Under the pieces are notes generated by a model. That model did not search any database. It had not been told where the DNA came from and was given only the letters and a program-made list of their open reading frames with translations. Below are positions 795 to 29,169 of a stretch of DNA of 64,000 bases, one piece after another (position 1 is the first letter of the stretch; each line of letters begins with the position of its first letter). A program made the translations under genes and the position numbers. Origin of the DNA: Candidatus Poseidoniaceae archaeon. Its GTDB lineage: Archaea > Thermoplasmatota > Poseidoniia > Poseidoniales > Poseidoniaceae. The stretch lies in contig CBFIJH010000003.1 of the NCBI GenBank assembly GCA_965662895.1, positions 29,150 to 93,149 on the forward strand. Reading direction: 5' to 3'.

Positions 795-1327
795 TGAGCG
801 CGAACATTGATGTTACCGTGGAGAACCAACTTGTCCGCTTTGTTGCTCCCGAACCGATTGATGCAAACGCAGTTGTTGAACAACTCAGTGGCCAACGTGT
901 GGGAAAAATGGTCATCAAAGCGCTTCGTAGGCCGAGAGCCACGCTGGTCATCGATCCCGAGGGACGAATTACTGTTCACGGCACGCATCGTGTCGAAGCT
1001 GCTCGAGATGCGGCGAAAGAGCTTATGCTGCGTCTCGGGAAAGATGATTCAGGATTGAAAACGGAACTCGGACCGATTATTGCATCTTTCCACTTCAACA
1101 CACCCTTGAATGTCCAATCCATCGTTGGCCCACTTGGTGCAGGAGAAGGTCAATACGACGAACGACTCGATTGTGGTATCATAAAAGATGAACGACATGA
1201 TCTCATTCTCCACGTCTGGGCGAATGGTCGTTGTGTTGTTACGGAAGGTCGACACCCGAAAATGGTTGCAATGGCAGCAGTTTATTGGCAATCAAAGTTC
1301 AAAGAACTTGGAATCACGAGTTTTTGA
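791..1327 (+). CDS. Divergent TATA-binding-protein (TBP)-fold protein
   Basis: 178 aa with two direct repeats matching the TBP pattern: VENQLVRF...RRPRATLVIDPEGRITVHG...AARDAAKELMLRLG and GPIIASFHF...HDLILHVWANGRCVVTEG...KFKELG. The canonical EQFPG and LIFxSG phenylalanines are absent. Confidence 0.65.
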   Translation: MMSANIDVTVENQLVRFVAPEPIDANAVVEQLSGQRVGKMVIKALRRPRATLVIDPEGRITVHGTHRVEAARDAAKELMLRLGKDDSGLKTELGPIIASFHFNTPLNVQSIVGPLGAGEGQYDERLDCGIIKDERHDLILHVWANGRCVVTEGRHPKMVAMAAVYWQSKFKELGITSF

Positions 1328-2284: not shown

Positions 2285-3367
2285 ATGGCAGGTGCGAAAA
2301 GGACGCTGGCTACAGTTGTTGTCGTATTTCTTTCTCTCACGCTCCTCTCATTTTCGACGTCGGCTCAAGGAGGGGTTGGAAGCATCTCATTGGAATGCGG
2401 GGATGACCCTGAAATCAACGTTAAACCGGGCGAATATCAGGACGAAATCGTAGATTGTACCGTCACAAACGATGGAACGATTCTCGCTGAAAATATTGAA
2501 ATCACCGAAGAATGGGAAGGTGTTTACATCAACATGGTCATCTCTGATAACTCGTTTACACTTGAAGCAGGTGAATCTGCTGAATTTACAGTAACATTTT
2601 CTTGCGATGAGCGAACTGATGCTCAATATCAGTACGAATTTACGATTACGGCGACAGTTACTGCTTGGGGTCCACTTCCGGTCGAAAATACGCCACTCTC
2701 GCAAGTTGCAAATCATACCGGTGCTGCTACCATCCAAGAATACGGTCTTGTAACGCTGGATGTGCCCGATACCTCGTCACGAACGATGCAGACGAGCGAG
2801 GAGGTGTCCATCACCTTCCAAGTTGACAACGATGGTAATGCAGACGATACCATTGAAATTCGCATTACCAACGCAAACGAACTTGAGGAACTCGGATTTA
2901 TTCTGCAAAGCGGGGATTTCCTGCGAGCGAATGATGTCCAGTCTGGCGGTGTTTCAGATCAACTCGAGTTTATTGTTCGTGCTCCGAGTGAAGCGGAATC
3001 AGAGATTCGAAACCTCATTGTTCTTGAAGCGACCAGTTCACTTGACGGTTCCAAAGACGTTGTTGATTTCGACCTCATTGTAGAGGCAGAGCAACAAAAC
3101 GCTGGTCTTGGATCTGGACTTTCAGAAGTGAGCACGGATGACCTCGCACTCTATGGAGCCATTGGCGGTGGTGTTGTGTTAGTCTTTTTCCTTCTCATTA
3201 TCATTGGACGTGTTTCAAAACGTTCGTCAAAGAACAAGATTGCCGAGGAAAAACCTTCCGAACCACCGATTGAAATCGAGGATGAAGATGAATTGGATTT
3301 CGACCTTGATTTTGATGACGACGACTTCTTATCGAATGACCTTGATTCCATGTTGGATGATTTGTGA
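2285..3367 (+). CDS. Secreted, membrane-anchored acidic surface protein with Ig-like beta domains
   Basis: N-terminal signal peptide, two beta-rich repeats (VTNDG / VDNDGNADD), a C-terminal TM helix (IGGGVVLVFFLLIII) followed by basic residues, and an Asp-rich tail. Confidence 0.7.
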   Translation: MAGAKRTLATVVVVFLSLTLLSFSTSAQGGVGSISLECGDDPEINVKPGEYQDEIVDCTVTNDGTILAENIEITEEWEGVYINMVISDNSFTLEAGESAEFTVTFSCDERTDAQYQYEFTITATVTAWGPLPVENTPLSQVANHTGAATIQEYGLVTLDVPDTSSRTMQTSEEVSITFQVDNDGNADDTIEIRITNANELEELGFILQSGDFLRANDVQSGGVSDQLEFIVRAPSEAESEIRNLIVLEATSSLDGSKDVVDFDLIVEAEQQNAGLGSGLSEVSTDDLALYGAIGGGVVLVFFLLIIIGRVSKRSSKNKIAEEKPSEPPIEIEDEDELDFDLDFDDDDFLSNDLDSMLDDL

Positions 3368-3425: not shown

Positions 3426-3476
3426 AATACTCAAAGACGTGGTGTGCCCTGTAACACCTGCCAATCGGGGATGCGA

Positions 3477-4271
3477 ATGCTAGGTCTACGAGGAAAAACC
3501 GCTGTCGTGTTTGGTGTTGCAAGCGAAGATTCGATTGCATGGGCCATTTGTCAACAACTCGCAGAGGCGGGTGCAGACCTGTTTCTAGGCTATCAGAAAC
3601 GCTTCATGTCCCGAGTGTTTCAACTCAAGGATAAGTTGCCTGCAATCAAAGGATTTTATCCACTCGACGTTGCTGAAGATGAGACAACCCGAGAATTTTT
3701 TGAAGAATTCAAAAAGGACAATCCTGGTCGAGAAATCGATGTTCTTGTTCATGCCATTGGCTTTGCTCCACGAAGTTGCTTCGACCGACCAATTTTATTC
3801 GTTGAAGATGCGGACATCAACACCGCGATGACAATTTCAGCCAATTCTCTGCAGCGCTGTCTTAAATTTGCCCTGCCGTATTTGAGCGCAGGCTCTTCAA
3901 CAATCACCCTCACATATGCAGCTTCAACGCGTTACGTACCATCGTATGGAATTATGTCGATGGCAAAAGCAGCCTTGGAATGCTGGACTCGAGAACTCGC
4001 TTGCCACCTTGGACCACATGGACACCGAGTAAACAGCATTTCCTCAGGCCCGATTCGAACAATTGCTGCATCAGGCATCCCCGGTTTCGATCGTATTCTC
4101 GATCACGTTGAAGCCAATGCTCCTTTACGGCGAAATGTCAACCAATCTGATGTTGCAGGAACAACACTCTGGCTCGCTAGCCCCCTTTCAGCGGGCGTGA
4201 CAGGCCAATGCATCCATGTCGATGCAGGTTATTCAATCACCATGGTGCCACAGAGCATCATGGATGCATGA
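3477..4271 (+). CDS. fabI: Enoyl-[carrier protein] reductase, FabI family
   Basis: GVASEDSIAWAI Rossmann motif, VHAIGFAP, catalytic Y-x6-K (YGIMSMAK), SGPIRTIAASGI and GVTGQCIHVDAG. Start placed at ATG 3477 (3471 possible) rather than GTG 3444. Confidence 0.93.
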   Translation: MLGLRGKTAVVFGVASEDSIAWAICQQLAEAGADLFLGYQKRFMSRVFQLKDKLPAIKGFYPLDVAEDETTREFFEEFKKDNPGREIDVLVHAIGFAPRSCFDRPILFVEDADINTAMTISANSLQRCLKFALPYLSAGSSTITLTYAASTRYVPSYGIMSMAKAALECWTRELACHLGPHGHRVNSISSGPIRTIAASGIPGFDRILDHVEANAPLRRNVNQSDVAGTTLWLASPLSAGVTGQCIHVDAGYSITMVPQSIMDA

Positions 4272-4280
4272 GGTGTCGAC

Positions 4281-7200
4281 ATGTCGCTCACAACCGATGA
4301 CGGAAAACCATGCGATGGTCTCGAACAAGGTCCCTTTGAACCGATTGCGGTCATTGGCCTTGCAGCAATGATGCCCGATGCTGAAGATTTGCAATCGTTC
4401 TGGCAGAACATCATCGAATCGCATGTCAGCATCAAGGAAATTCGTGAGGGGCGTTGGCCTGGGCCTGTTGATCATTTCTGGATGGAAGGGCAACCAGGCG
4501 ATGTTGCACATGGTTACACATATTCCAAGATTGGTGCTTTTGTTGAAGGGTATGAGTTTGATTGGAGACGGTGGAGGCAACCTCCTGGAACGATTCCACA
4601 AATCGATCCTTGTCAGTTGTGGGCAGTGTCCGTCTCTGCTGCAGCTATCGAACAAGCAGGGTACGGCGAAGGGGAGAAAGAATTCCCTCGTGAACGAGCA
4701 GGCGTCGTTTTTGCAAACGCTCTCGGTGGCGAGAATCGAAACCTCTCAAACATCCGTGTTTGGTCAAACCACACCGCTGAGATAGCGAAGTCACATGGGA
4801 TGCCTCCATCGTCAAAAGATGAATTCATGGATTCCATTACTGAACATTCTCCCAAGGTTGATGAAGATACGATGCCCGGGGAACTGGCCAATGTTGTCGC
4901 TGGACGAGTTGCCAATTTGCTCGATCTACAAGGGCCGAATCATGCCATGGATGCAGCTTGTGCCTCATCGATGGCTGCAGTCTTGGATGCCTGCAGACTG
5001 CTTCAGACACGACAAGTGGATGTGATGCTTGCTGGAGCCACAGACCGAACAATGGATCCAGCCACATACGCGAAATTTAGTGCCATTGGAGCCCTCTCTC
5101 CAACCCATTCAACACCCTTTGACGCTCGTGCAAATGGCTTCGTTATGGGAGAAGGCGCTGGAGCCATGGTTCTCAAGCGTCTAAGCGATGCAATTGAGGA
5201 TGATGATACCATACACGCTGTAATTCGAGGTATCGGTGGGTCGAGTGACGGTCGTGGAAAAGGCATAACCGCTCCAAGTCAACGTGGCCAGATCCAGGCC
5301 ATTGCCCGTGCGTACAACCAAGCAGGTTATCCAGCATCCACCGTGGAGTTGGTCGAAGCACACGGAACATCGACAAAAGTTGGTGATGCTACAGAGCTTT
5401 CTACCCTTACGCGCCTATGGACCGATGCAGCATCTGGAGACAATGTTGCCGTTGGTTCCATCAAGTCCCAAATCGGTCATTTGAAGGCTGCAGCAGGCAT
5501 TGCCGGTATCATCAAATCGGTCATGGCTCTTCATCACAGAACCATCCCGCCTTCCGCAGGCTTTGAAACACCGAATCCAACAGTCGATTGGGAAAATATT
5601 CCTTTCTTTGTTCCCACCTCTCCTCTTGAATGGCCAAATCCTGAATCGCATCCACGGCGGGCCGGTGTCTCTGCCTTCGGATTTGGTGGAACGAATTTCC
5701 ATATCGCCTTAGAAGGATATGAGCCAGACTATCATCGAACAATGGCTGAAGAGTGGCAGCAACGCTGGAATGCTTATTCAAAATCATCACCGATTTCTGC
5801 TCCTTCAATCCTTGATGGTAAAGCCAAAGCGTCGCTAACGCACGATGAATTGAAAACCATCGAAGGCGGCGTTCTTCTTCTCTCAGGAGCATCCATCGGT
5901 GCACTCGTCACTCAACTTGAATCAACGTCATTTTCTGGAGCAAAGTTCGACGATGATCCTCGTGGTTTGCGTCTGTCAATGGCACTTCAATCAGCGAGTT
6001 CTTCCTTTGATCATCACCAATTGTGTCGTTTGGCCCTGATTGCAACCTCATGGGCTGAATTTGAAAAACGGAAAAAATTGGCACTCACGTCTTTGGCCGA
6101 CCCAGAAAAGTGGGGCTTCCTTCAGGCGCAAGGAATTCTCGTGAGCGATCAACCAGCATTACCCTCTGAAGCGAAAATTGCACACATGTATCCTGGTCAA
6201 GGCTCACAATATGTTGGTATGACACTTGATTTGTACCAACGATTTACTCCGGCCCAAGAAGTTTGGAAAGCCTCGGATTCAACCATGGTCGAGGTACTTG
6301 ATGGTGAAACACTTTCTTCATTCGTTTTGCGTGATGGGTTGAGCGATGATGAACGTAAAACTGCTGAACATAAACTCAAGCAAACTGAATACACACAACC
6401 TGCAATGCTGACAGCCGATTTAGCCATCGAGCATACGCTCAATGCATATGGGCATAACCCTGACATGGTTGCAGGGCATTCGCTCGGCGAATACGCTGCA
6501 CTGATGGTTTCAGGTATTCTCAACATGGATGGTGCACTGCGAGCGGCTGCGGCCCGTGGCACTGAAATGGGATCAGTTGAGATTGAAGACAAGGGACTGA
6601 TGGCGAGCGTTACAGCTCCGTACGAAGCCGTTGAGCGTATTCTTGAGGCAACGGATGGCTACGTCATTGCAGCCAACAAAAATTCTCCAAAAATGACGGT
6701 TATTGCCGGTGCAACAGAACCCGTACAAACTGCGATGAAAGCGTTTGAAAGTGAAGGATATAATTGCGTTCCACTCGCTACTAGCCACGCCTTCCATTCG
6801 AGTATCGTTGCTCCTGCAAATGAACCGCTCTACCGATTCCTTTCATCCCTGGAAATCAATTGGCCATCAATTCCAATCACTGCCAACGTTGATGGCACAT
6901 TCTATCCAAAGAATGGCTCCAATGCAACCGAGGGGATTCTGTCGAAATTAGCTCCCCAAATGGCATCTTCAGTCGAATGGACCTCCCAAATCAACACCAT
7001 GTATGATGCAGGTGCGAGAATTTTTGTTGAAGTTGGACCGAAGCGTGCGCTCACGATGTTTGCTTCGCAGATTCTTGAGGACAAGTCTCATCTTGCCATT
7101 ATGACCAATCATCCGAAACAAGGTGGAATCGCTTCTTTCCTCACTGCGATAGGAGCATTAGCACTTGCAGGGCGTCCACCGAAAATGATTCAAGGTACTT

Positions 7201-10200
7201 CGGAAGTGTTGAGCGAAGCGTTCAGGGCAGGGCCTATCGAAGCACATCAAGCATCCAGTTTACCGAAACGACCGAACCAAGAAGATCTGCGTGTTCGCGC
7301 TCGTCCATTACCAAACAAGGGCGGACAAAGCACTACATCTCCTGAGGCGCCAGTGGAAAATAACTCTGTTCAGAGCCACCCAACTGTTGCGGATTATGTC
7401 GGTGACCGAATTGCCCAGCATTGTGGATATCCTCCAATGTTCTGCCAAGGCATGGTCAACCTCCGGCTTGGTTTGGGATTGTCTGATAAATCCATCCAAA
7501 GCATTGTTTCTGGTATTGCTTCGGAAGCACAAACGGATGCAGAGGTTGACATTCATTCAGCAACGACAGCCGCTGACATTGAACGATGGGTTCGACAACC
7601 ACCTGCAGGTTGGATGCCACGGGTTCACCTTTCAAAATCATCAACTGCTCCAGCAGTTCAACAAGCGAATCACGACCCCATGGCGCAACGAAGAGCCGAT
7701 CCGTATGTCGTCACTGGAATCAGCCTCGGCCTTCCAGGAGGTGAGAGGGTTTTCGACAAGGATGTCTTTGAACGCCTGGTTCGAGGTGAGACTTGCATCG
7801 AGGAGGTTTCAGATGACTACAAGCAACGCCTCCTCGACAAGAACATCACTCGCCTCATCAAAGGACGAGACGGTTCTGTCAATATGGAACAAGCAACGGC
7901 ATTCGGAGATATTCCTCAACTTGCAGGAATAAAAGGAGCATTTGACCTTGCAGAAGAGTTTGGAATTGATCCGAAGATGGTTCTTGCCTGGGATATTACA
8001 ACCCAACTTGCCATGGCCTCTGGCCTTCTGGCACTTCGAGATGCAGGTATTCCGTTAACTCCAGAAGAACAAACAGGGAAAGGTGGTTTGCGAGTGATTC
8101 GAAACTGGCAAGTTCCGAGTGTTCATCGAGACCGCACAGGGATTGTTCTCGCATCGTGTTTCCCTGGATTGCAAATGGCCATGAAACATGCAAAATCAAA
8201 TGGCGATGATGGGGAAGATAAGTTCGATCGTCGCTATTTGTTCCAAGTTCTAACGATGGGACACTCACAGTTCGCACAATTTACGGGAATTCGGGGTCCA
8301 ACCACAACCATCAATCTCGCATGTGCATCTGCAACAGGTGCATTCCAAATCGCAGAGGATTGGCTTGCAGCCGACCGTGTGGATCGAGTTGTCATTCTTT
8401 CTGCTGATGATGTTACTGGTGACGATTTATGGGAATGGATTGGTAGTGGATTTGCTGCCACCGGTGCTGCATCAACCAACAACATTGTCGAAGAGGCAGC
8501 ACTACCATTCGACAAGCGACGCAATGGACTCGTACTCGGGATGGGTGCAGCGTCCTTTGTCGTTGAACGCAAGAGTTCAGCAGACGAGCGTGGCGTTCAA
8601 CCGATTGCAGAACTTTTGGGAGCAAAGACAGCAAATTCAGCATATCACGGAACTCGACTGGATGTTGAACACGTAGCCAGCACCGTTGATGAGTTTGTGG
8701 GAGAAATGGAACAACGGTGGGGACTCGACCGCCACAACATCGCCAAAGACCTGGTGTTTTATTCTCACGAAACATACACGCCTGCTCGTGGCGGAAGCGC
8801 ACAGAGCGAAGTGAAGGCATTACGGGAGACATTTGGCGATAGTACCGATTCAATGGTCATTGCCAATACGAAAGGATTCACCGGACATCCGATGGGTGTA
8901 GGAATCGAAGATGCAAGTATGTTCTATGGTCTCTTGACCAAACGCATACCTCCAATTGCAAATTATAAGGTACTCGATGAAGAACTCGGTGATCTCAATC
9001 TCTCGAAAGGGGGCGAGTATCCGAACCTTACCTACGGTTTGCGATTTGCCGCCGGTTTTGGTTCGCAAATTGGCCTCTCCTTTGTCCGAGCATGGCCGAT
9101 CGAAGGTGAACGAATCGATGGCAAGCGTCTCCTGGCATGGTGCCGAAATCTTGCTGGATCTCACGATATTCAACTCCGCCTCCTTGACAATAAATTGGTT
9201 GCGTATGTTGATGGTGATGACAATCTCCATGGAGGAATTCAAGGCGAGGCATATGCCATTACTGCACCGTTTGAGGGTCTCCAAACCGAGGTGACTGAGA
9301 AGAACCAGTCCGTGACTCAACCACCTGAAGTCGTACCAGAGGATGCAACACCGAAAGAAGTACCAGCAGCAACACCGTCAAGCGCTCCATTGAGCGGTGA
9401 TATGGTTGAAACCGTCATCGATGTGGTAGTCAAACATACCGGCTACCCTGCAGATTTCGTCGAATTGGATCAAGATTTGGAGGGTGAACTTGGAATTGAT
9501 ACGGTCAAGCAAGCAGAAATCATGGTTGATATTCGTCAACAATTCAATCTTCCATTGGATGAAAGTTTTGTTCTTTCTGAACACCCTACACTGAATCATA
9601 TGATCGGCTACATTCAGAGAATGCAAGGTGATGAAGCGGCTCCAGTTCCCTCACCATCTTCACCTTCCGTTGAACCTGAATCTTCTGCTGAAACATTTGA
9701 TGTTGAAGCATCGGAGGTTGAGACTCTTGACCACTCACTTCCAATATCTGATGAGAAAATGACCCAGCAGGTTATCGATGTCGTTGTCAAGCATACTGGC
9801 TATCCAGCCGATTTCATTGAACTCGATCAGGATTTGGAAGGTGAACTTGGTATTGATACTGTTAAACAAGCTGAAATTATGGTCGATATTCGGGAAAAGT
9901 TCAATCTACCCGTCGATGAGGACTTCTTGCTTTCAGAACACCCAACGCTCAATCATATGATTGGTTACATCGTTCGTATGAAAGGAGGTTTGTCCACAGT
10001 TTCTGTTCCGGACCCACAGCCGGTTTCAGAACCAACTCCGAAGCCAAAAGAAACCCCAGCTCAGCCCGTCGTGACCGATGTTGGTATCGAAGCATCATTG
10101 ATCGAAGTCGTTGTGAAACATACTGGCTACCCTGCAGATTTCATAGAAATGGATCAAGATTTGGAAGGTGAACTTGGAATTGACACAGTGAAACAAGCCG

Positions 10201-13022
10201 AGATCATGGTCGATGTTCGTGAGATATTCTCCTTGCCTGTGGATGAAGACTTCTTACTCTCAGAACATCCAACCTTGAATCATTTCGTTGCCTACATCGT
10301 GAAAATGAAGGGAGGAGCGGTTGATAGCGAATCTTCATCGGTAACTGAGGCAACTGCAGAACCTCCAGCAGCACCATCAAATGTTTCGATTGAACTGGAT
10401 GGGTGCCGAAGATGGCAGGTGGAAGTTGAGGAAGCAGAAACGATTGCGTCGACATTATCGCTTGATGGAACCGTTGTTGTCACGGATGATGGTTGGGGTA
10501 TTGCAGAACATCTTTGCGCACGTCTCGAAGCAAGAGGTCTTTCTACGGTCCGAGTAGGATTTGAAGCAGGAATACGAGATGTTTCAATACAATCCGAACA
10601 AGCTCGTACCGTTCATCGCGGTGATCCAGCAAATTCTGAGCACATTGAATCGATTACAACATCGCTCTCAACCATGAATGTGGTCGGTTTGCTGCATCTT
10701 GCACCCATGAAACTCGCATCGGCACGCTGGTCGGAGGATACTGTCCCATCTGCCCAAATCTCCCTAGCAGCGCATGGTTGGTTTGGTCTTCTCAAAGGAA
10801 TGGACTCCCGATTGGCTGAATTGGATGAAGGCATCATTGCAAGTGTCACTGCGATGGACGGGCGTCATGGAAACATTGGCGAGCGGTTCAATTCCATCCA
10901 ATGTGCAGCCTCAGGGGTTACCAAATCCTATTCCTTCGAACGTCCAAATTTGCGTTCACGCGCACTTGACCTTCATCCTGAACTTATCTTCGATGCCGAG
11001 TCGGTTGCTGAAGACATCGAAACGGAATTGTTTGAACGAGGTGGGGACGTCGAAGTCGGAATTGATCGCGATGGTCGCCGCTGGATTCTTGCTGCGTTTG
11101 CAGAGGAGGTTGTTGATGAACTTGAACCATTGAAGTCCGATGATGTGTGGTTGGTATCGGGTGGAGGCTCGGGCGTAACTGCGGCTTGCATCATAGGTGT
11201 AGCAGAGGCAAGTCAAAGTGCTGAAGCATCGTTCCATTTGCTCGGTCGGTCGGTCCTCATCGAGCAAACTGCTGATTGGTTGGATTGGAGCGAAGAAGAT
11301 CTCATGAAAGAAAAGATGGCTCTTCGAGAACGTATGATCGAAGCATCAAGTGCCGGTAAAGTCACAATGGTTGAATGGAACAATGCATGGCAGAGATTTA
11401 CCCGAAGCATGGATGTTTACAAGACACTCTCACAAATTGAGGCAACGGGTAACCGTGCCTTCTATCATTCCATTGATGTGACCGATGCTGAGGCACTATC
11501 GTCTCTTGGAGCATCACTTTCAAATCCAATTACAGGTGTTGTTCATGGGGCAGGGTTGGAGGATTCCAAACTTGTATCGGACAAAACGTGGGAAACATTC
11601 GACAAGGTTGTACGCGTAAAGATTGACGGATGGACTGCATTGATGAAAGCGGTGCAAAGTTCAGAGGGCGAATTGCGCTTTGCATCAGCATTCACATCGG
11701 TTGCAGGACGATTCGGAAACGGTGGACAAACCGATTATGCAGCTGCGAATTCGATTCTTGATGCTGAAATGGCACGCCTGACGGCAAAAGGAACATGCCG
11801 TGCAGTTGCCATTGGCTGGACAGGTTGGCGAGACGTCGGTATGGCAACGAGGGGCAGTATTGAATCGGTCTTTGAGGCTGCGGGCATTGAGACGTTGCCA
11901 GTAGAGGTTGGCGTCCAACTCTTTGTTGATGAAGCACTCCGAGGTGGAAAGCGCAGGGTGATTGCATGCGGATCGCTTGGATTGATGGATCGATTTGATG
12001 CGTTTCGAGAGGCACCGCTAATGCTACCTGCTGAAATGGCTGCTGTTATGGCAGATCCATCTCGATTTCCATTTATTGACAAAGTGCTCTCCTTCGATGA
12101 AGGCCAAATGGTCATGACACAAAGCACGCTCTCCGTTGCTGAGCATCCTTTCCTCAGCGATCACGCCATCGATGGTATCCCGTACCATCCAGGCGTCATG
12201 GCGATGGAAATGTTCGCAGAAAATGCACTGCTTCTTTGTCCAGACGCATGCCTGGCTGGTTTTGAAAACGTCACATTTGGTTTGCCAGTGAAAATCATGA
12301 AAGGTACAATGCGAGTACGAACGGAGGCGGTGGTTGATCGCACCGAAGGTGATGTAACTTGGGTAAAGTGCAGGCTTGTTTCCGACCTAACCAATTCGGA
12401 GGGCACCGTTTTCGGAGAACGCGAACATCATGAAGCTGTCATACGTTTGGTAAAGAAATCCGATGACCTGAGTACGTTCTTACAATCGGAAATCTCGCAA
12501 TTACCGACGATTGGAACGCCACCTTCAGGGCGTCTTGAACATCATGCCTCGTTCATTTACTTGCGCTATTTCCATGGCCCTCGTTTCCAATCGCACGGAG
12601 GTGTCCTGCGTGGTGTTGGAGATGCTTCACAGCCCGGAGTTGACGGTATCGCACTGATGCGTCACCAATTACCTGCTACCGATCAATTTGCTCTTGAACG
12701 AGATGGAGAGAATGTTTTGCTTGAAGCACTGCCAATGCTCATCGAGGCTGGGTTCCAAAACGCCGGTTTGGTTGCAATGGAATCAGAAGGATTCAGCAGT
12801 TTACCGGTTGGTATTGAATGGTCGACGCTACTTCGAGTTCCCGATGAAGACGAGCAATTGCGATTGCGTTCGATTCGTATCGCCTCAGAAGATGCAGGTG
12901 TAACGGTTCACGACGTTCTTGTTGTTGGACAGGATGATGCACCAGTGCTCGCATTGAAAGGACTTCGATTAAAGGCCATGGCACCCGTTCCTGATGACCA
13001 AAAATTCACGCTCGAGCGCTAA
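4281..13022 (+). CDS. Type I iterative PKS/FAS megasynthase, PfaA-related: KS-AT-(degenerate ACP)-KS-ACP-ACP-ACP-KR-DH
   Basis: KS1: DAACASS (C227), EAHGTST, KSQIGHL. AT: GQGSQ, GHSLG (S734), SHAFHS (malonyl-type). KS2: NLACAS (C1348), SHETYT (H1496), KGFTGH (H1536). Three ACPs: DLEGELGIDTVKQAE. KR: SGGGSGVT, VVHGAG, GQTDYAAAN. DH: HAIDGIPYHPG, FHGPRFQ. SD GAGGTG upstream. Confidence 0.95.
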   Translation: MSLTTDDGKPCDGLEQGPFEPIAVIGLAAMMPDAEDLQSFWQNIIESHVSIKEIREGRWPGPVDHFWMEGQPGDVAHGYTYSKIGAFVEGYEFDWRRWRQPPGTIPQIDPCQLWAVSVSAAAIEQAGYGEGEKEFPRERAGVVFANALGGENRNLSNIRVWSNHTAEIAKSHGMPPSSKDEFMDSITEHSPKVDEDTMPGELANVVAGRVANLLDLQGPNHAMDAACASSMAAVLDACRLLQTRQVDVMLAGATDRTMDPATYAKFSAIGALSPTHSTPFDARANGFVMGEGAGAMVLKRLSDAIEDDDTIHAVIRGIGGSSDGRGKGITAPSQRGQIQAIARAYNQAGYPASTVELVEAHGTSTKVGDATELSTLTRLWTDAASGDNVAVGSIKSQIGHLKAAAGIAGIIKSVMALHHRTIPPSAGFETPNPTVDWENIPFFVPTSPLEWPNPESHPRRAGVSAFGFGGTNFHIALEGYEPDYHRTMAEEWQQRWNAYSKSSPISAPSILDGKAKASLTHDELKTIEGGVLLLSGASIGALVTQLESTSFSGAKFDDDPRGLRLSMALQSASSSFDHHQLCRLALIATSWAEFEKRKKLALTSLADPEKWGFLQAQGILVSDQPALPSEAKIAHMYPGQGSQYVGMTLDLYQRFTPAQEVWKASDSTMVEVLDGETLSSFVLRDGLSDDERKTAEHKLKQTEYTQPAMLTADLAIEHTLNAYGHNPDMVAGHSLGEYAALMVSGILNMDGALRAAAARGTEMGSVEIEDKGLMASVTAPYEAVERILEATDGYVIAANKNSPKMTVIAGATEPVQTAMKAFESEGYNCVPLATSHAFHSSIVAPANEPLYRFLSSLEINWPSIPITANVDGTFYPKNGSNATEGILSKLAPQMASSVEWTSQINTMYDAGARIFVEVGPKRALTMFASQILEDKSHLAIMTNHPKQGGIASFLTAIGALALAGRPPKMIQGTSEVLSEAFRAGPIEAHQASSLPKRPNQEDLRVRARPLPNKGGQSTTSPEAPVENNSVQSHPTVADYVGDRIAQHCGYPPMFCQGMVNLRLGLGLSDKSIQSIVSGIASEAQTDAEVDIHSATTAADIERWVRQPPAGWMPRVHLSKSSTAPAVQQANHDPMAQRRADPYVVTGISLGLPGGERVFDKDVFERLVRGETCIEEVSDDYKQRLLDKNITRLIKGRDGSVNMEQATAFGDIPQLAGIKGAFDLAEEFGIDPKMVLAWDITTQLAMASGLLALRDAGIPLTPEEQTGKGGLRVIRNWQVPSVHRDRTGIVLASCFPGLQMAMKHAKSNGDDGEDKFDRRYLFQVLTMGHSQFAQFTGIRGPTTTINLACASATGAFQIAEDWLAADRVDRVVILSADDVTGDDLWEWIGSGFAATGAASTNNIVEEAALPFDKRRNGLVLGMGAASFVVERKSSADERGVQPIAELLGAKTANSAYHGTRLDVEHVASTVDEFVGEMEQRWGLDRHNIAKDLVFYSHETYTPARGGSAQSEVKALRETFGDSTDSMVIANTKGFTGHPMGVGIEDASMFYGLLTKRIPPIANYKVLDEELGDLNLSKGGEYPNLTYGLRFAAGFGSQIGLSFVRAWPIEGERIDGKRLLAWCRNLAGSHDIQLRLLDNKLVAYVDGDDNLHGGIQGEAYAITAPFEGLQTEVTEKNQSVTQPPEVVPEDATPKEVPAATPSSAPLSGDMVETVIDVVVKHTGYPADFVELDQDLEGELGIDTVKQAEIMVDIRQQFNLPLDESFVLSEHPTLNHMIGYIQRMQGDEAAPVPSPSSPSVEPESSAETFDVEASEVETLDHSLPISDEKMTQQVIDVVVKHTGYPADFIELDQDLEGELGIDTVKQAEIMVDIREKFNLPVDEDFLLSEHPTLNHMIGYIVRMKGGLSTVSVPDPQPVSEPTPKPKETPAQPVVTDVGIEASLIEVVVKHTGYPADFIEMDQDLEGELGIDTVKQAEIMVDVREIFSLPVDEDFLLSEHPTLNHFVAYIVKMKGGAVDSESSSVTEATAEPPAAPSNVSIELDGCRRWQVEVEEAETIASTLSLDGTVVVTDDGWGIAEHLCARLEARGLSTVRVGFEAGIRDVSIQSEQARTVHRGDPANSEHIESITTSLSTMNVVGLLHLAPMKLASARWSEDTVPSAQISLAAHGWFGLLKGMDSRLAELDEGIIASVTAMDGRHGNIGERFNSIQCAASGVTKSYSFERPNLRSRALDLHPELIFDAESVAEDIETELFERGGDVEVGIDRDGRRWILAAFAEEVVDELEPLKSDDVWLVSGGGSGVTAACIIGVAEASQSAEASFHLLGRSVLIEQTADWLDWSEEDLMKEKMALRERMIEASSAGKVTMVEWNNAWQRFTRSMDVYKTLSQIEATGNRAFYHSIDVTDAEALSSLGASLSNPITGVVHGAGLEDSKLVSDKTWETFDKVVRVKIDGWTALMKAVQSSEGELRFASAFTSVAGRFGNGGQTDYAAANSILDAEMARLTAKGTCRAVAIGWTGWRDVGMATRGSIESVFEAAGIETLPVEVGVQLFVDEALRGGKRRVIACGSLGLMDRFDAFREAPLMLPAEMAAVMADPSRFPFIDKVLSFDEGQMVMTQSTLSVAEHPFLSDHAIDGIPYHPGVMAMEMFAENALLLCPDACLAGFENVTFGLPVKIMKGTMRVRTEAVVDRTEGDVTWVKCRLVSDLTNSEGTVFGEREHHEAVIRLVKKSDDLSTFLQSEISQLPTIGTPPSGRLEHHASFIYLRYFHGPRFQSHGGVLRGVGDASQPGVDGIALMRHQLPATDQFALERDGENVLLEALPMLIEAGFQNAGLVAMESEGFSSLPVGIEWSTLLRVPDEDEQLRLRSIRIASEDAGVTVHDVLVVGQDDAPVLALKGLRLKAMAPVPDDQKFTLER
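9400..10310 (+). repeat. Three tandem ACP-domain repeats within the megasynthase, separated by Pro/Ser/Glu-rich linkers
   Basis: Near-identical ~75-aa units VVVKHTGYPADF.E.DQDLEGELGIDTVKQAEIMVD.R..F.LP.DE.F.LSEHPTLNH at ~9400, ~9755 and ~10085, with many synonymous DNA differences. Confidence 0.92.
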
Positions 13023-13031
13023 GGTGATGTT

Positions 13032-13793
13032 TTGACCGTCACCATTCGCTGGATACCTCTCGGGGATGAATTGCGGTGCCTTTTAGCAACGTGCCCAATC
13101 GTGGAGAAAAACCCCAACGAATTGAAACTCATTCATTGGGATGAGATCCGAACATTCAAAACGCAAAAAAGGAGCAATGAACATCTATCTGCTCGATGGC
13201 TGTTGGAACAAGCGCTCAATGAGTGGGGTGGTATTGATTGCTCGCAAATCAACGTTGCGCGAACAAACGAAAGGGCGCCCTACTTGGAAACTATCCAAGG
13301 GTTATGGGTTCAACCGACCTTACCCAACATCTCGATTTCACATAGCGAAAATCTCGCATGTGTCGCCCTTATCGACCGTGGGTGGACCGTCGGGATCGAT
13401 GCAGAACCTCTCCGACGTCCACCTCAACCTGCTGTCTACGATATGATGGCAAGAGGTGAAGAGTTGGCTCAACTCAAATCTGGGAAGCTCGATGCATTAT
13501 GGGCATGGACTTCGAAGGAAGCAATCCAAAAGGCCGCCCGATTGGGCATGCATCTCAACCCACGAAACATCGACCTTACTTCCCTTAGTGAAAAGAATAA
13601 AATTGCAATTGAAAATTTAGAATTTCAATTGGAAAATTTGTCGAATAATGATTACAAAATCATCCTTGCATGGGGGAGAGATGTTCATCCAATTCGCTCA
13701 AAGGAGGACGATCTTTTGGATGCAACTCGAGAAGCGATGCATGCAACCGATGATTGGTCGGTGGGTTGCTCCACCATAAGAAAAAGTGGATAA
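13032..13793 (+). CDS. 4'-phosphopantetheinyl transferase (Sfp/PfaE type)
   Basis: SISHS, VGIDAE and WTSKEAIQKA motifs. TTG start 4 nt after AAGGTGA; begins 9 nt after the PKS stop. Confidence 0.9.
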   Translation: MTVTIRWIPLGDELRCLLATCPIVEKNPNELKLIHWDEIRTFKTQKRSNEHLSARWLLEQALNEWGGIDCSQINVARTNERAPYLETIQGLWVQPTLPNISISHSENLACVALIDRGWTVGIDAEPLRRPPQPAVYDMMARGEELAQLKSGKLDALWAWTSKEAIQKAARLGMHLNPRNIDLTSLSEKNKIAIENLEFQLENLSNNDYKIILAWGRDVHPIRSKEDDLLDATREAMHATDDWSVGCSTIRKSG

Positions 13794-15920: not shown

Positions 15921-17330
15921 TCAGGCGTTTATGTTTCGAATTTCAGGTGTCTGATCCGCTATCATGAACTCAAGCATGGCAGCCCACATAACAAATTCCA
16001 TGCTTTTTTCAAGTTCTTCAACACCACCAACCATTTCGATCATGTTGTCCAAGGTGTCGTCAGGAGAGTGATATGCACTGTAATCGGAGTCGTAGGCGCC
16101 AAGGTGGAAGATGGTTTGAGCGCCTAGGTCGCGGAAGGTGACGTGGTCCGATCGGCCGAATGTGTCTTCATGTACATCAAGGACAAGGTCTTCATGGTCT
16201 TCCCAGTGCTGGTCGCAGCCTGATCCATATGTGCCGTCAATTCGTAAATCCATAGGCGCTTCGAGGATGTTTCTGTGAACATGGTCAAGAACCGTTGTTA
16301 TTTCCACATCTTGGACTTCAGGATCGAAATCTGGACCAGACCAAGCATGGTAGGGGTAAGGCTCACCAGTCGGTTTGACAGCCGGATAGGAAATGCCCAT
16401 CATGTCCATGTTGATGTAGAATCGAAGTTCTTTATCGGTTGGTAGACAATAATCGCACTCGTTGTTTGCAAAAGCATTCGAACCTCGAAGTCCTTCTTCT
16501 TCCGAGGACCACAATGCGAGGAATGTATCGCATTCAACTTCAATGTCAACAAATGCCTTTGCAAATAGCATCATGCTTACAGTACCGCCAGTGTTGTCGT
16601 AAGCCCCTTCGTATGTACCACCGCCTGGTGGTCCACCTGGGAACATGATGTCCATGTGTCCTCCCATGCCCTGAACACATGAAGCGTCTCGTCCGCGCTT
16701 CCATGCGATAACGTTCAAACTCTCGGGTTCTGCAGGATTTCCGTGGTCAAAGACGCGAAGAATGTGGGTCTCATATCCCAAACCTTCGAAATGACCTTGG
16801 AAGAAGGAAGCTGCTCGTTCAAAGGCAGGGTTTGGTGATCCCATCCATCGATTGATGTACCCTCCGCATTGTGTTGTATCAGGGCACACATTGGTGATGT
16901 ATTCCATCTTATCCATCCATTCTTTGCCGTTAACGATCGGTGTGCCATTGGTGACTTGCATCTCGTACGTGTCACCAGAACCATCTTGATGGACAATTGT
17001 CAACTTGACTTCATCGACATATGGAGTCAACAAGAGCCTACCATTGATGGATTCTCCCTCAACGGCTGCATATCCATTTGGTACGATGTATCCATCAACA
17101 AACAGCATCACATCGGTTGGAACTGAAATAGCTCGGCCGTTACCTAGGAGTTGAAACTCATGCCATTCTCCGCTCTTCAGTACAGCGTTTTCTGGCATTT
17201 GATAATCGATTTGAAAAACAATAGGGACGCCTTCCTGGACGATTTCATCTTCTCCGAAACAACCTGAGAGTGATGCAAGCAGCATAAGCGAAACGAGGAA
17301 CACGCCTTTTGATGCTCTCTTGACCAGCAT
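15921..17330 (-). CDS. M28 family metallopeptidase, lipoprotein
   Basis: Lipobox LSGC; GHMD, GAYDN, SEEEGLRGS, NMDM, RSDH and YHSPDD motifs. Start set at ATG 17330 because the longer ORF overlaps the tRNA. Confidence 0.88.
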   Translation of the reverse strand: MLVKRASKGVFLVSLMLLASLSGCFGEDEIVQEGVPIVFQIDYQMPENAVLKSGEWHEFQLLGNGRAISVPTDVMLFVDGYIVPNGYAAVEGESINGRLLLTPYVDEVKLTIVHQDGSGDTYEMQVTNGTPIVNGKEWMDKMEYITNVCPDTTQCGGYINRWMGSPNPAFERAASFFQGHFEGLGYETHILRVFDHGNPAEPESLNVIAWKRGRDASCVQGMGGHMDIMFPGGPPGGGTYEGAYDNTGGTVSMMLFAKAFVDIEVECDTFLALWSSEEEGLRGSNAFANNECDYCLPTDKELRFYINMDMMGISYPAVKPTGEPYPYHAWSGPDFDPEVQDVEITTVLDHVHRNILEAPMDLRIDGTYGSGCDQHWEDHEDLVLDVHEDTFGRSDHVTFRDLGAQTIFHLGAYDSDYSAYHSPDDTLDNMIEMVGGVEELEKSMEFVMWAAMLEFMIADQTPEIRNINA

Positions 17331-17374
17331 GTCTTGGCCTGTTCGCACCCACTCAAAGGCTTTGTTGGTCGAGG

Positions 17375-17446
17375 TGCGGATAGCGGGAGTCGAACCCACG
17401 ACATAAGGTTGGAAACCTCAGATGATAACCACTTCACCATATCCGC
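17375..17446 (-). tRNA. tRNA-Gly (anticodon TCC), intronless
   Basis: Reverse complement GCGGATA-TG-GTGAAGTGGTTATCAT-C-TGAGG-TTTCCAA-CCTTA-TGTC-GTGGG-TTCGACT-CCCGC-TATCCGC-A: acceptor stem GCGGATA/TATCCGC, T-loop TTCGACT, anticodon TCC. Confidence 0.95.
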
Positions 17447-27810: not shown

Positions 27811-27944
27811 ATCCTTCACTTGTGCCGAGGGTTCTTGAAGACGTCGGCGAAATAGGTAGGTCATCCAACGCGCGAAAAGCGCATTACCGGAATAGTAAGT
27901 TCATAAGCCGTCGAAGTGAGTCGTTATGCATAGGGGTGCCTCAG

Positions 27945-29115: not shown

Positions 29116-29169
29116 GACAGTCAACAAAGGTGTGACAACATTCAATTCCAAGTGAGAAGTGGACGATGT

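What the first reader, a model, noticed from the sequence alone, without database searches (positions are those of the whole stretch)
7700..9095. Second, divergent but apparently catalytic KS domain between AT and the ACPs
Seen: KS2 retains Cys (NLACAS, C1348), His (SHETYTP instead of HGTST, H1496) and Lys/His (KGFTGH, H1536), and has long insertions (e.g. LLDKNITRLIKGRDGSVNMEQ). Established: PfaA has a single KS, and PfaC pairs KS with a Cys-less chain-length factor. Inference: KS-AT-KS-ACPn-KR-DH with two intact triads is an atypical architecture. KS2 may prime chains, elongate a different length range, condense two chains, or release product in place of the missing thioesterase.
Basis: partly seen in the sequence, partly recalled or inferred. 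Interest (0 to 1): 0.78.

Follow-up and report, generated by a model that had tools for sequence, protein, structure and literature searches.

The report
Second active ketosynthase in archaeal synthase
A giant fatty-acid/polyketide-type enzyme of an abundant marine archaeon really does carry a second, fully equipped chain-building domain, but this layout is the hallmark of a widespread, already catalogued and still uncharacterised enzyme family rather than a one-off oddity.

Summary
Residues 1140-1605 of the 2913-aa ORF (window 4281-13022) are a second ketosynthase (KS2). They align with FabF C163/H303/K335/H340.

These residues are kept in 121/121 Marine Group II orthologs. They are kept in 131-132 of 132 distant relatives. 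KS1 keeps its own catalytic set too. KS2's model is closest to FabF, not to PfaC KS-CLF.

The architecture is not unprecedented. It is the 'Type R' pfaA homolog of Shulse & Allen 2011: KS-MAT-CLF-ACP(3-6)-KR followed by a PPTase gene, product unknown. KS2 is their 'CLF', but it keeps the cysteine.

The host is archaeal (Poseidoniales). The operon is fabI-synthase-PPTase. The genome has no other KS.

Best reading: a self-contained, ACP-dependent iterative fatty-acyl synthase in which two active KS domains split the work, probably by chain length. A KS1:KS2 heterodimer is predicted but cannot be told from homodimers.

In passing: all ACPs carry Thr at the phosphopantetheine site.

Verdict: new member of a known kind.

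The parts
3444..4271 (+). fabI-like enoyl-ACP reductase gene (275 aa), directly upstream of the synthase. It would be the trans-acting ER.
   Evidence: Pfam adh_short_C2 E 1.7e-69. The best 12 NCBIfam models are all FabI (best 222.5 bits, below the equivalog cut-off of 391). A FabI-like ORF lies directly upstream on the same strand in 63 of 64 MGII loci with room for it.
4281..13022 (+). Megasynthase ORF of 2913 aa: KS1-AT-KS2-ACPx3-KR-DH.
   Evidence: TIGR02813 PfaA scores 907.7 bits, below its cut-off of 1010.1.
4338..5564 (+). KS1 (residues 20-428), PfaA/PKS-type, with C227, H361, K395 and H400.
   Evidence: PF00109 and PF02801; motifs. In 85 KS1 domains from 82 relatives: Cys 85/85, His 84/85, Lys 84/85, His 85/85.
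6186..7172 (+). Acyltransferase domain (residues 636-964), with a GHSLGE motif at 732.
   Evidence: PF00698 E 1.9e-36. FabD TIGR00128 scores 190.3 bits. Motif position.
7698..9095 (+). KS2 (residues 1140-1605), the finding: a FabF-like second ketosynthase.
   Evidence: Model pLDDT 91.3, pTM 0.93. Foldseek top hit is FabF 6olt_A, E 1.9e-32, TM(target) 0.89. VIA-align: FabF 9lpl_A Z 45.3, rmsd 2.4, 401 aligned.
8322..8324 (+). Codon of C1348, the KS2 active-site Cys (FabF C163).
   Evidence: Kept in 121/121 and 131/132.
8766..8786 (+). H1496-E-T-Y-T-P-A. The first catalytic His (FabF H303) is followed by the family-specific invariant Glu1497 in place of Gly304.
   Evidence: H 132/132, E 132/132, T1498 128/132, T1500 126/132.
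8871..8888 (+). K1531-G-F-T-G-H1536 (FabF K335 and H340).
   Evidence: K 132/132, H 132/132.
8160..8162 (+). Codon of F1294, aligned with FabF I108 in the acyl pocket.
   Evidence: F 122, W 6, Y 4 of 132. The placement rests on a MAFFT alignment, not on coordinates.
7794..7871 (+). KS2 insertion 1 relative to E. coli FabF (residues 1172-1197).
   Evidence: The model gives a helix plus a beta-hairpin there. Residues 49, 52-58 and 68 of the domain touch KS1 in the predicted complex.
8067..8132 (+). KS2 insertion 2 relative to FabF (residues 1263-1284), a predicted beta-hairpin.
9414..10310 (+). Three tandem ACP domains. Each has G-I-D-T (T1741, T1860, T1969) where carrier proteins have the phosphopantetheinyl-Ser.
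   Evidence: PF00550 with 3 stretches. Motifs and codons ACG/ACT/ACA. The Thr aligns with the Ser of GVDS/GIDS in PigH ACPs, 5y08.
11412..11834 (+). Ketoreductase domain (residues 2378-2518, the part matched by Pfam).
   Evidence: PF08659 E 3.7e-25.
12072..12983 (+). PKS-type dehydratase (residues 2598-2901).
   Evidence: PF21089 E 6.2e-8. PF14765 E 0.0016, which is below its cut-off.
13032..13793 (+). Sfp-type 4'-phosphopantetheinyl transferase gene (253 aa), directly downstream.
   Evidence: PF01648 E 1.6e-8 and PF22624 E 1.9e-6. Found directly downstream on the same strand in 55 of 55 MGII loci with room for it.

Best explanation
KS2 is a catalytically competent, FabF-type decarboxylative condensing domain. 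It is the defining extra domain of the 'Type R' family of PfaA-like megasynthases.

In this Marine Group II archaeon, the synthase (KS1-AT-KS2-ACP3-KR-DH), the upstream FabI and the downstream PPTase form a self-contained, ACP-dependent, malonyl-CoA-fed iterative fatty-acyl synthase. The AT loads malonyl onto the ACPs. KS1 and KS2 each carry out Claisen condensations. KR, DH and FabI reduce the beta-carbon.

The two KS domains are not redundant. They divide the elongation cycles, most likely by chain length. KS2, with an aromatic residue in the pocket position of FabF I108, would take the initiating and short-chain rounds. The PfaA-type KS1 would take the longer chains.

Shown: the domain, its residues, their conservation, its fold, the operon and the family.

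Inferred: catalytic activity, the division of labour and which KS does which part, the saturated fatty-acyl product, and off-loading by acyltransferases rather than a thioesterase.
For: Catalytic residues. All residues needed for decarboxylative condensation align with FabF and are kept in the family: C163, H303, K335, H340, F400, T305, T307 and E314, each in at least 126 of 132. They are kept in 121/121 MGII orthologs.

Both KS domains are maintained. KS1 keeps its set too (84-85 of 85). The two domains diverge at the same rate: mean identity to the query is 45.5% for KS1 and 44.0% for KS2 over 80 proteins. Each forms one clade (SH-aLRT 100) with largely matching sub-trees, so both have been kept since the family arose.

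Fold. The model has pLDDT 91.3. FabF ranks first by Foldseek and by VIA-align (Z 45.3). PfaC KS-CLF 6riw_A comes at rank 33 with Z 33.7. The KS2 profile hits FabF at E 1e-38.

Pocket. The FabF I108 position is aromatic in 132/132.

A complete cycle is encoded. FabI is upstream in 63/64 loci and the PPTase downstream in 55/55. Some relatives fuse an NMO-type ER and/or a PPTase to the same core.

Link to malonyl-CoA supply. Acetyl-CoA carboxylase genes flank the synthase in Nonomuraea and in two other Thermoplasmatota genomes. The same is reported for Koribacter.

Genome context. The own genome (92% complete) has no other KS ORF, only two 403-aa ORFs with weak partial PF00109 hits. It has 3 PlsC-type acyltransferase matches and 3 carboxyltransferases.

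Distribution. KS2 was found in 41/41 genomes of the same family.

Analogy. In PUFA synthases the PfaA KS is said to act early and KS-CLF late (PMC13291983, passage seen).
Against: No biochemical data exist for any member. Shulse & Allen list Type R as 'uncharacterized product'.

KS2 departs from FabF in invariant ways whose meaning is unknown. Gly304 is Glu (132/132). D311 is Ala/Ser, with an inserted, invariant R-G-G-S loop that is the one low-confidence stretch of the model (residues 365-370, pLDDT under 50). It might therefore do a variant reaction.

Assigning KS2 to the short-chain range rests on one aligned position. It also rests on my recollection that FabF I108F narrows the pocket. The B. 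subtilis I108F enzyme, as I recall, still supports growth.

KS2 could equally be the long-chain enzyme.

The ACPs carry Thr, not Ser, at the attachment site. Ordinary ACP chemistry is therefore not assured.

PF02801 is not detected in KS2.
Confidence: 0.55

Rival explanations
1. KS2 works mainly as the partner of KS1 in an intramolecular KS1:KS2 heterodimer, in the manner of KS/CLF pairs. It would shape the acyl tunnel and set chain length, and perhaps prime by decarboxylating malonyl-ACP. It would not run its own elongation cycles. The megasynthase could then act as a monomer with a pseudo-dimeric KS core.
For: Shulse & Allen annotated the domain as CLF.

The predicted KS1+KS2 complex scores 0.84 against a best control of 0.14 (3 controls). 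That mark was reached by 116 of 157 solved complexes and by 2 of 215 mismatched pairs. The runs agree in at least 87% of contacts, and the partner's pLDDT is at least 84.

The interface is the canonical KS dimer face next to both active-site Cys strands. It includes KS2's family-specific insertion, domain residues 49 and 52-58.

A FabF-type KS/CLF-like heterodimer that initiates fatty-acid synthesis has been described in anammox bacteria (bioRxiv 10.64898/2026.05.19.726425, passages seen).
Against: CLFs are defined by loss of the Cys-His-His triad (passage). KS2 keeps it in 131-132 of 132, together with Lys, the gating Phe and both Thr. That would be unexplained in a purely structural partner.

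The complex pass may come from likeness to the many solved KS dimers. The homodimers KS1:KS1 and KS2:KS2 were not modelled, so heterodimer and homodimer cannot be told apart.

KS2 is structurally nearer to FabF (Z 45.3) than to PfaC KS-CLF (Z 33.7).
Confidence: 0.27
2. KS2 carries out a non-elongating reaction. Candidates are head-to-head condensation of two acyl chains, chain release or transfer in place of a thioesterase, or condensation with an unusual extender unit.
For: No thioesterase domain is found in the ORF or next to it.

The active-site surroundings differ from FabF in invariant, family-specific ways: Glu1497 next to the catalytic His, the R-G-G-S loop, and loss of D311.
Against: The residues used to bind and decarboxylate malonyl-ACP are all kept: both His, Lys, T305/T307 and E314.

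Thiolase-fold enzymes that do non-decarboxylative or head-to-head chemistry rank far lower in structure. OleA 4kti scores Z 24.2 against FabF at Z 45.3.

FAS II systems also lack a thioesterase and hand acyl-ACP to acyltransferases (established knowledge). The genome has 3 PlsC-type matches.
Confidence: 0.1
3. KS2 is an inactive relic whose motifs persist by chance or for folding only.
For: Pfam recognises only the N-terminal half, and weakly (58.5 bits). NCBIfam FabF scores far below its cut-off.
Against: The catalytic residues are invariant across 132 domains that are only 33-77% identical. KS2 evolves no faster than KS1. The domain is present in every one of the 151 relatives typed.
Confidence: 0.03

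Closest known systems
'Type R' secondary lipid synthase cluster (Shulse & Allen 2011, PLoS One, PMC3098273; sections 7 and 9 read, other passages by search)
   Same: A single pfaA homolog with a KS-like domain between MAT and 3-6 tandem ACPs, then KR, followed by a PPTase gene.

Named relatives of KS2 come from the same groups: Roseiflexaceae and Acidobacteriia, plus other Chloroflexota, Myxococcales and Actinomycetes.

ACC genes are linked to the synthase in some members.
   Different: The paper calls the domain 'CLF' and says nothing about its residues. Here it keeps Cys-His-His.

The paper lists bacteria only; its main text holds no 'archaea'. This member is archaeal.

This member has a fabI gene upstream. 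It also has a PKS-type DH after the KR that the 2011 domain string does not list.

The five genomes named in the paper could not be compared directly.
PfaA/PfaC of PUFA synthases
   Same: KS1, AT, tandem ACPs, KR and PKS-type DH follow the PfaA order. Two condensing units work on one set of ACPs. The PfaA KS is said to act early and KS-CLF late (passage).
   Different: PfaA has one KS. The second condensing unit is on PfaC, paired with a Cys-less CLF.

Here both KS are in one chain, separated by the AT, and both keep Cys.

TIGR02813 scores below its cut-off. No further KS-bearing ORF exists in the genome, so there is no PfaC. No FabA-type DH was seen in the ORF.
FabF (KAS II) of type II fatty-acid synthesis
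   Same: It is the best match in sequence profile and in structure. The catalytic Cys, His, His, Lys, gating Phe, two Thr and Glu are shared.
   Different: KS2 is a domain inside a megasynthase with about 70 extra residues: two insertions and a C-terminal extension.

Gly304 is Glu. D311 is lost, with an RGG insertion. I108 is aromatic.

It scores 127.9 bits against a cut-off of 493.75. It lies on a long branch of its own (stem 1.57 changes per column).
KS/CLF heterodimers (type II PKS; PfaC; anammox amxFabF2/amxFabFmut, bioRxiv 10.64898/2026.05.19.726425, passages seen)
   Same: Two KS-fold units are encoded together. A KS1:KS2 heterodimer on the canonical interface is predicted.
   Different: In those pairs one partner has lost the triad. 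Here neither has.

Membership tests
Type R secondary lipid synthase (Shulse & Allen 2011) | One pfaA homolog with the domain order KS-MAT-(KS-like 'CLF')-ACP(3-6)-KR | tested here: met
   Pfam gives KS 20-428, AT 636-964, KS-like 1143-1435, 3 PP-binding stretches and KR 2378-2518.
Type R secondary lipid synthase (Shulse & Allen 2011) | PPTase gene downstream of the synthase | tested here: met
   Window 13032-13793 carries PF01648 and PF22624. Present in 55/55 MGII loci.
Type R secondary lipid synthase (Shulse & Allen 2011) | Common descent with the synthases of Koribacter, Solibacter, Elusimicrobium and Roseiflexus | tested here: inconclusive
   KS2 relatives of 340-600 bits share the core. 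Named relatives of representative P0141 include Roseiflexaceae and Acidobacteriia. The five genomes of the paper themselves could not be fetched or compared.
Type R secondary lipid synthase (Shulse & Allen 2011) | PPTase of the P1b' motif class (hShxH) | not tested
   The feature is described in the passage. I did not examine the PPTase motifs.
Chain length factor (CLF) | KS fold that lacks the active-site Cys / the Cys-His-His triad | tested here: not met
   C1348, H1496 and H1536 are present and conserved in 131-132 of 132. The criterion is as stated.
Chain length factor (CLF) | Obligate heterodimer with an active KS | tested here: inconclusive
   The predicted KS1+KS2 complex scores 0.84 against a best control of 0.14. 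Homodimers were not modelled, and the pass may reflect likeness to solved KS dimers.
FabF / KAS II (NCBIfam TIGR03150) | Score above the curated cut-off | tested here: not met
   127.9 bits against 493.75.
FabF / KAS II (NCBIfam TIGR03150) | Cys163-His303-His340 triad with Lys335, Phe400 and Thr305/Thr307 | tested here: met
   by alignment with E. coli FabF taken from locus L096.
FabF / KAS II (NCBIfam TIGR03150) | H-G-T-S/G-T-P motif with Gly after the His, and Asp311 | tested here: not met
   H-E-T-Y-T-P, with Glu in 132/132. The D311 position is Ala/Ser, with an RGG insertion.
FabF / KAS II (NCBIfam TIGR03150) | Free-standing protein of a dissociated FAS II | tested here: not met
   KS2 is residues 1140-1605 of a 2913-aa ORF.
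PfaA (NCBIfam TIGR02813) | Score above the curated cut-off | tested here: not met
   907.7 bits against 1010.1. The KS2 fragment alone gives no TIGR02813 hit among its 16 families.
PfaA (NCBIfam TIGR02813) | Works with PfaC (KS-CLF-DH2) encoded in the same genome | tested here: not met
   PF00109 in the own genome (92% complete) finds only KS1, KS2 and two 403-aa ORFs with weak partial hits. PfaB and PfaD were not searched.

The most novel reading that the evidence does not exclude
The KS1-AT-KS2 core defines a third architectural class of de novo fatty-acid synthase, beside FAS I and FAS II. It would have two active, non-redundant ketosynthases in one chain, possibly paired as an intramolecular heterodimer with two different active sites. 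Its carrier domains would bear phosphopantetheine on threonine, installed by a dedicated PPTase.

This class would be the main fatty-acid source of Marine Group II and several other Thermoplasmatota lineages. These archaea would then make fatty acids in an ACP-dependent way, contrary to the general statement that archaea lack such machinery.
Probability: 0.3. Interest if true: 0.85.

Novelty: new member of a known kind. Interest (0 to 1): 0.58.

Why it matters
For PKS/FAS enzymology, the domain catalogued in 2011 as a 'chain length factor' in Type R synthases is, by every sequence and fold criterion tested, a complete FabF-like ketosynthase. It is kept alongside a complete PfaA-like one across hundreds of divergent clusters. 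That makes the family a natural system for asking how two condensing domains share one set of carrier domains. Single Cys-to-Ala mutants would give a direct answer.

For archaeal biology, a 2024 preprint states that archaea seem to have neither FAS I nor FAS II, and that ACP and ACP synthase are absent from nearly all of them (passage seen). Here, every one of 41 sampled genomes of the window's family encodes the KS2 domain. Among the fetched MGII loci with room for them, a fabI gene lies directly upstream in 63 of 64 and a PPTase gene directly downstream in 55 of 55. So did 103 of 301 sampled Thermoplasmatota. The family's members are Marine Group II, among the most abundant planktonic archaea.

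Rinke et al. 2019 report that these archaea lack the G1P-backbone enzyme and have G3P dehydrogenase (passage seen). The operon therefore bears on the 'lipid divide' question.

The threonine at the carrier attachment site, if modified, would be new post-translational chemistry.

Tried and rejected
1. I could obtain only E. coli FabF and FabB as named references. No PfaA/PfaC, fungal or CMN FAS-I sequences were within reach. A structural ranking stood in for them.

The Nonomuraea record was too large for the genome search. So I could not test whether bacterial holders also have FAS II.

3. Protein Atlas returned nearest clusters partly from diatoms and Zoopagomycota. These are leads only and were not followed. 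No claim about eukaryotes is made.

4. RNA evidence is thin. One RNA-library run (X1) held a single 164-nt contig at 8473-8633 with 1 differing letter. The rest of the operon had no cover in it. The tool notes that DNA can be present in such libraries, so transcription is not shown.

5. BLASTP of ACP1 against E. coli AcpP gave no alignment. The Thr placement rests on the phmmer alignment to PigH instead.

6. Acyl-pocket size could not be computed, because model coordinates are not exposed to scripts.

7. Homodimer models of KS1 or KS2 could not be run, since only one complex job is allowed. Heterodimer versus homodimer therefore stays open.

8. Literature. They found no paper in the held library that describes a PKS/FAS megasynthase in Marine Group II or Poseidoniales, any follow-up on Type R, or Thr-linked phosphopantetheine. 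Villanueva et al. 2017 (10.1111/1462-2920.13361) is not held. Iverson et al. 2012 was not looked for. Either may mention these genes. I recall, unverified, that Villanueva et al. reported bacterial-like fatty-acid genes in MGII. Supplements of Rinke et al. 2019 were not opened.

9. One of the 80 related loci is titled as a Salipiger bermudensis MAG (L004, 92% identity). I take this as a binning error and did not check it.

10. A Pfam scan of linker regions failed because of a frame slip of mine. I did not repeat it.
Full report
WHAT IS THERE

The finding lies inside one long ORF, window 4281-13022 (+), of 2913 aa. Pfam reads it as follows:
- KS (20-428, with the KS C-terminal extension to 525)
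- AT (636-964)
- a second, weaker ketoacyl-synt match
- three PP-binding domains
- KR (2378-2518)
- a PKS-type DH (2598-2901)

Window 7700-9095 is residues 1140-1605.

Scanned alone, this stretch matches PF00109 (E 9.9e-16). Among NCBIfam models it matches FabF best (TIGR03150, E 3.9e-37, 127.9 bits, far under the cut-off of 493.75). It gives no PfaA hit. The whole protein scores 907.7 bits on the PfaA model TIGR02813, under its cut-off of 1010.1.

IS KS2 CATALYTIC ON PAPER

I aligned E. coli FabF (taken from locus L096) to 132 KS2 domains. In FabF numbering:
- C163 = C1348 (131/132, one Trp)
- H303 = H1496 (132/132)
- K335 = K1531 (132/132)
- H340 = H1536 (132/132)
- gating F400 = F1593 (131/132)
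- T305 = T1498 (128/132) and T307 = T1500 (126/132)
- E314 = E1510 (132/132)

The 132 domains come from representatives of 50%-identity clusters and are 33-77% identical to the query. Among 121 proteins of 74.5-100% identity, all from Marine Group II, every one keeps these residues.

KS2 also has invariant features that FabF lacks:
- Glu1497 in place of Gly304 (132/132).
- Loss of D311, with an inserted Arg-Gly-Gly-Ser loop that is invariant in alignment A1.
- An aromatic residue at the position of FabF I108 (F 122, W 6, Y 4 of 132).

Insertions relative to FabF lie at 1172-1197 and 1263-1284.

FOLD

An AlphaFold2 model built on a 21-row alignment has mean pLDDT 91.3 and pTM 0.93. The only stretch under pLDDT 50 is domain residues 365-370, the inserted loop.

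Foldseek against the PDB puts FabF structures first (6olt_A, E 1.9e-32, TM to target 0.89).

VIA-align against 48,161 representative chains gives:
- FabF 9lpl_A: Z 45.3 (rmsd 2.4, 401 aligned)
- actinorhodin KS 1tqy_A: Z 44.0
- FabB 3oyt_B: Z 42.8
- type I PKS and FAS KS domains: roughly Z 34-41
- PfaC KS-CLF 6riw_A: Z 33.7, rank 33

A profile of KS2 hits FabF at E 1e-38. So KS2 is of the FabF kind, not of the PfaC KS/CLF kind.

KS1 COMPARED

KS1 keeps C227, H361, K395 and H400. In 85 KS1 domains from 82 relatives the counts are 85, 84, 84 and 85.

Over 80 proteins carrying both domains, mean identity to the query is 45.5% for KS1 and 44.0% for KS2.

I built a tree of 31 KS1, 31 KS2, E. coli FabF and FabB. 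I used 30 of the proteins with both domains plus the Nonomuraea protein; the others were left out to keep the run short. KS1 and KS2 are each one side of a branch (SH-aLRT 100). The same groupings recur in both halves, for example P0001+P0102+P0125, the P0222/P0239/P0250/P0266 group, and P0169+P0237. The tool warns that the two long stems meet, so I draw no conclusion on which is nearer to FabF. The pattern fits one old origin of the two-KS core, followed by co-inheritance.

THE FAMILY AND WHAT IS ALREADY IN PRINT

The exhaustive representative search found 7133 clusters at E<=1e-3 and 542 at E<=1e-30. In the best 150, the KS2-type domain scores about 340-600 bits. The same proteins' KS1 scores about 20-30 bits against the KS2 query.

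KS2 always sits after AT and within a core (ER)-KS1-AT-KS2-ACPn-KR-DH-(PPT). Many rows are fragments. In a few, ACPs also or only precede KS2. Pfam on 12 of them confirms N-terminal NMO-type ER and C-terminal PPTase fusions.

Shulse & Allen 2011 (PMC3098273; sections 7 and 9 read in full; other passages by search) describe a 'Type R' cluster. It consists of one pfaA homolog, KS-MAT-CLF-ACP(3-6)-KR, followed by a PPTase gene. It occurs in Koribacter, Solibacter, Elusimicrobium and Roseiflexus, has an uncharacterised product, and in Koribacter includes an acetyl-CoA carboxylase gene.

Named relatives of representative P0141's KS2 come from these groups: Kouleothrix, Roseiflexaceae, Oscillochloridaceae, Chloroploca, Promineofilum, Anaerolineae, Caldilineaceae, Acidobacteriia/Terriglobales, Thermoanaerobaculia, Myxococcales and Actinomycetes. 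This is the same family. The paper's main text says nothing on the residues of that domain. The one 'active site' passage concerns PfaB.

By the usual criterion a CLF lacks the Cys-His-His triad (stated in bioRxiv 10.64898/2026.05.19.726425, passage seen). KS2 does not meet that criterion.

HOST AND OPERON

The window encodes TBP, PCNA and Nop56/58, so the host is an archaeon.

The closest proteins and loci are titled Candidatus Poseidoniaceae, Poseidonia sp., Poseidoniales, Thermoplasmatota, Methanobacteriota or Euryarchaeota. That holds for 79 of the 80 loci kept. One is titled as a Salipiger MAG. This is Marine Group II.

Directly upstream lies a FabI-like enoyl-ACP reductase gene. Its best 12 NCBIfam models are all FabI, each below the equivalog cut-off. 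Directly downstream lies an Sfp-type PPTase gene. The fabI gene is in place in 63 of 64 MGII loci with room for it, and the PPTase in 55 of 55. Both are also present on the MG-II chromosome record CM001443.1 (L056).

The window's genome (92% complete) shows:
- no other KS-bearing ORF, only two 403-aa ORFs with weak partial PF00109 hits, which I take for thiolases without testing
- three PlsC-type acyltransferase matches
- three carboxyltransferases
- no PlsY found

In a sample of 301 genomes of the phylum, KS2 was found at E<=1e-40 in 103. That includes 41 of 41 in the window's family, 9 of 22 in the sister family of the same order and 0 of 8 in the next family. It also includes most genomes of four further families (9/9, 21/24, 5/6, 10/10).

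Two such genomes have acetyl-CoA carboxylase genes flanking a PPTase-fused synthase. A same-order genome has fabI-synthase-PPTase. In Nonomuraea gerenzanensis the gene order is an acyl-CoA-dehydrogenase-like gene, the synthase, a 1821-aa single-chain ACC, then a 247-aa ORF.

HOW IT MOST LIKELY WORKS

Shown: a complete set of domains for the fatty-acid cycle is encoded in one operon (KS, AT, ACP, KR, DH, plus FabI in trans and a PPTase). Across the family it is linked to malonyl-CoA supply.

Inferred: it is an iterative, ACP-dependent fatty-acyl synthase. Both KS domains are active and non-redundant, because both have been kept intact at equal rates over deep divergence.

Systems with two condensing enzymes generally split the work by chain length or stage: FabH/FabF, KasA/KasB (my knowledge), and PfaA KS early versus KS-CLF late (passage in PMC13291983). 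I commit to that reading (0.55).

I tentatively give KS2 the initiating and short-chain rounds because of the aromatic residue at the I108 position. From memory, I108F narrows the FabF pocket. The PDB lists a B. subtilis FabF I108F structure, 4ls6. This assignment is the weakest step.

Off-loading is probably by acyltransferases acting on acyl-ACP, as in FAS II. No thioesterase was seen.

THE HETERODIMER RIVAL

KS1 (residues 15-485) plus KS2 scored 0.84, with runs of 0.86, 0.84 and 0.84. The best of 3 controls scored 0.14. That mark was reached by 116 of 157 solved complexes and 2 of 215 mismatched pairs. The runs agree in at least 87% of contacts, and the partner's pLDDT is at least 84.

The interface is the canonical KS dimer face and includes KS2's first insertion.

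KS dimers and KS/CLF pairs are richly represented among solved structures, and homodimers could not be modelled for comparison. So this shows only that a KS1:KS2 pair is sterically plausible. I hold the KS/CLF-like reading at 0.27. It conflicts with the full retention of KS2's catalytic set. The quaternary question (heterodimer or homodimer) is separate and stays open.

NOTICED ON THE WAY

All three ACPs have G-I-D-T where carrier proteins have the phosphopantetheinyl-Ser: T1741, T1860 and T1969, with codons ACG, ACT and ACA. A phmmer alignment to the PigH ACPs (5y08) puts the Thr on the Ser of GVDS/GIDS.

By a motif count:
- 355 Thr and 0 Ser in 118 of 120 MGII orthologs (2 had no motif hit)
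- 323 Thr, 19 Ser and 5 Ala in the representatives
- 322 Thr, 5 Ala and 2 Ser in the P0141-like bacterial set

Nonomuraea and the other archaeal loci show the same motif. One locus has one DS ACP and three DT ACPs.

The count uses a regular expression, not a domain model. One search and the Shulse & Allen text gave nothing on this.

LIMITS

No biochemical evidence exists for any member. Taxon names for the coded families are my inference. The reference set for the tree is minimal. Transcription is not shown. Key subscription papers could not be read.

VERDICT

This is a new (archaeal) member of a known but uncharacterised kind. Its 'CLF' is better described as a second active FabF-like KS.

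Noticed in passing
window 9501-9503, 9858-9860, 10185-10187 (T1741, T1860, T1969 in the three ACPs): The carrier domains have G-I-D-T where the phosphopantetheinyl-Ser should be. This holds across the whole KS1-AT-KS2 family: 355 Thr and 0 Ser among motif hits in MGII orthologs, 323 Thr, 19 Ser and 5 Ala in representatives, and 322 Thr, 5 Ala and 2 Ser in the bacterial set. The Thr aligns on the Ser of PigH ACPs. A dedicated PPTase is always fused or adjacent. This may be Thr-linked phosphopantetheine.
   Followed up: partly
window 791-1327, 27798-28685, 29152-30177: TBP, PCNA and Nop56/58 genes show the host is an archaeon. Related loci are titled Poseidoniales / Marine Group II.
   Followed up: yes
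L089 16667-22132; L099 10833-15998; L098 4254-5978 and 15228-16826: Acetyl-CoA carboxylase genes flank the synthase in Nonomuraea and in two other Thermoplasmatota genomes. Two of them are eukaryote-like single-chain ACCs: 1821 aa in L089, and at least 1722 aa in L099, where the ORF is cut by the locus end.
   Followed up: partly
L089 7187-9001: In Nonomuraea an acyl-CoA dehydrogenase-like gene (604 aa) sits directly upstream of the synthase, where MGII has fabI and other relatives have a fused NMO-type ER. It may be a third solution for the enoyl reduction step.
   Followed up: no
proteins P0137, P0144, P0160, P0168, P0176, P0240, P0241 and others: The placement of ACPs varies in relatives. 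Some have an ACP between KS1 and AT or between AT and KS2. P0137 has its detected ACPs only before KS2. So the order KS2 then ACP is not fixed.
   Followed up: no
window 8784-8798 (R1503-G-G-S1506 after H-E-T-Y-T-P-A): An invariant Arg-Gly-Gly-Ser loop is inserted where FabF has A-G-D311. It is the only part of the KS2 model with pLDDT under 50.
   Followed up: partly
window 15921-17399 (-), 17503-23127 (-), 2285-3367 (+): An M28 peptidase, a 1874-aa S8 subtilase and a 'choice-of-anchor T' / S-layer-like protein lie near the operon. This fits a protein-degrading surface-ocean archaeon.
   Followed up: no
G000 contig C12, 31264-34370 (loci L086, L087): A PlsC-type acyltransferase ORF (537 aa) lies just upstream of a carboxyltransferase gene in the window's own genome. 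This may be a second lipid-related gene pair.
   Followed up: no
L004 (CAXQWT010000010.1): A contig with a 92%-identical KS2 is filed under a Salipiger bermudensis MAG. This is probably a binning error.
   Followed up: no
window 8473-8633: A single 164-nt contig from one metatranscriptome library matches inside KS2 with 1 differing letter. This is too little to claim expression.
   Followed up: partly
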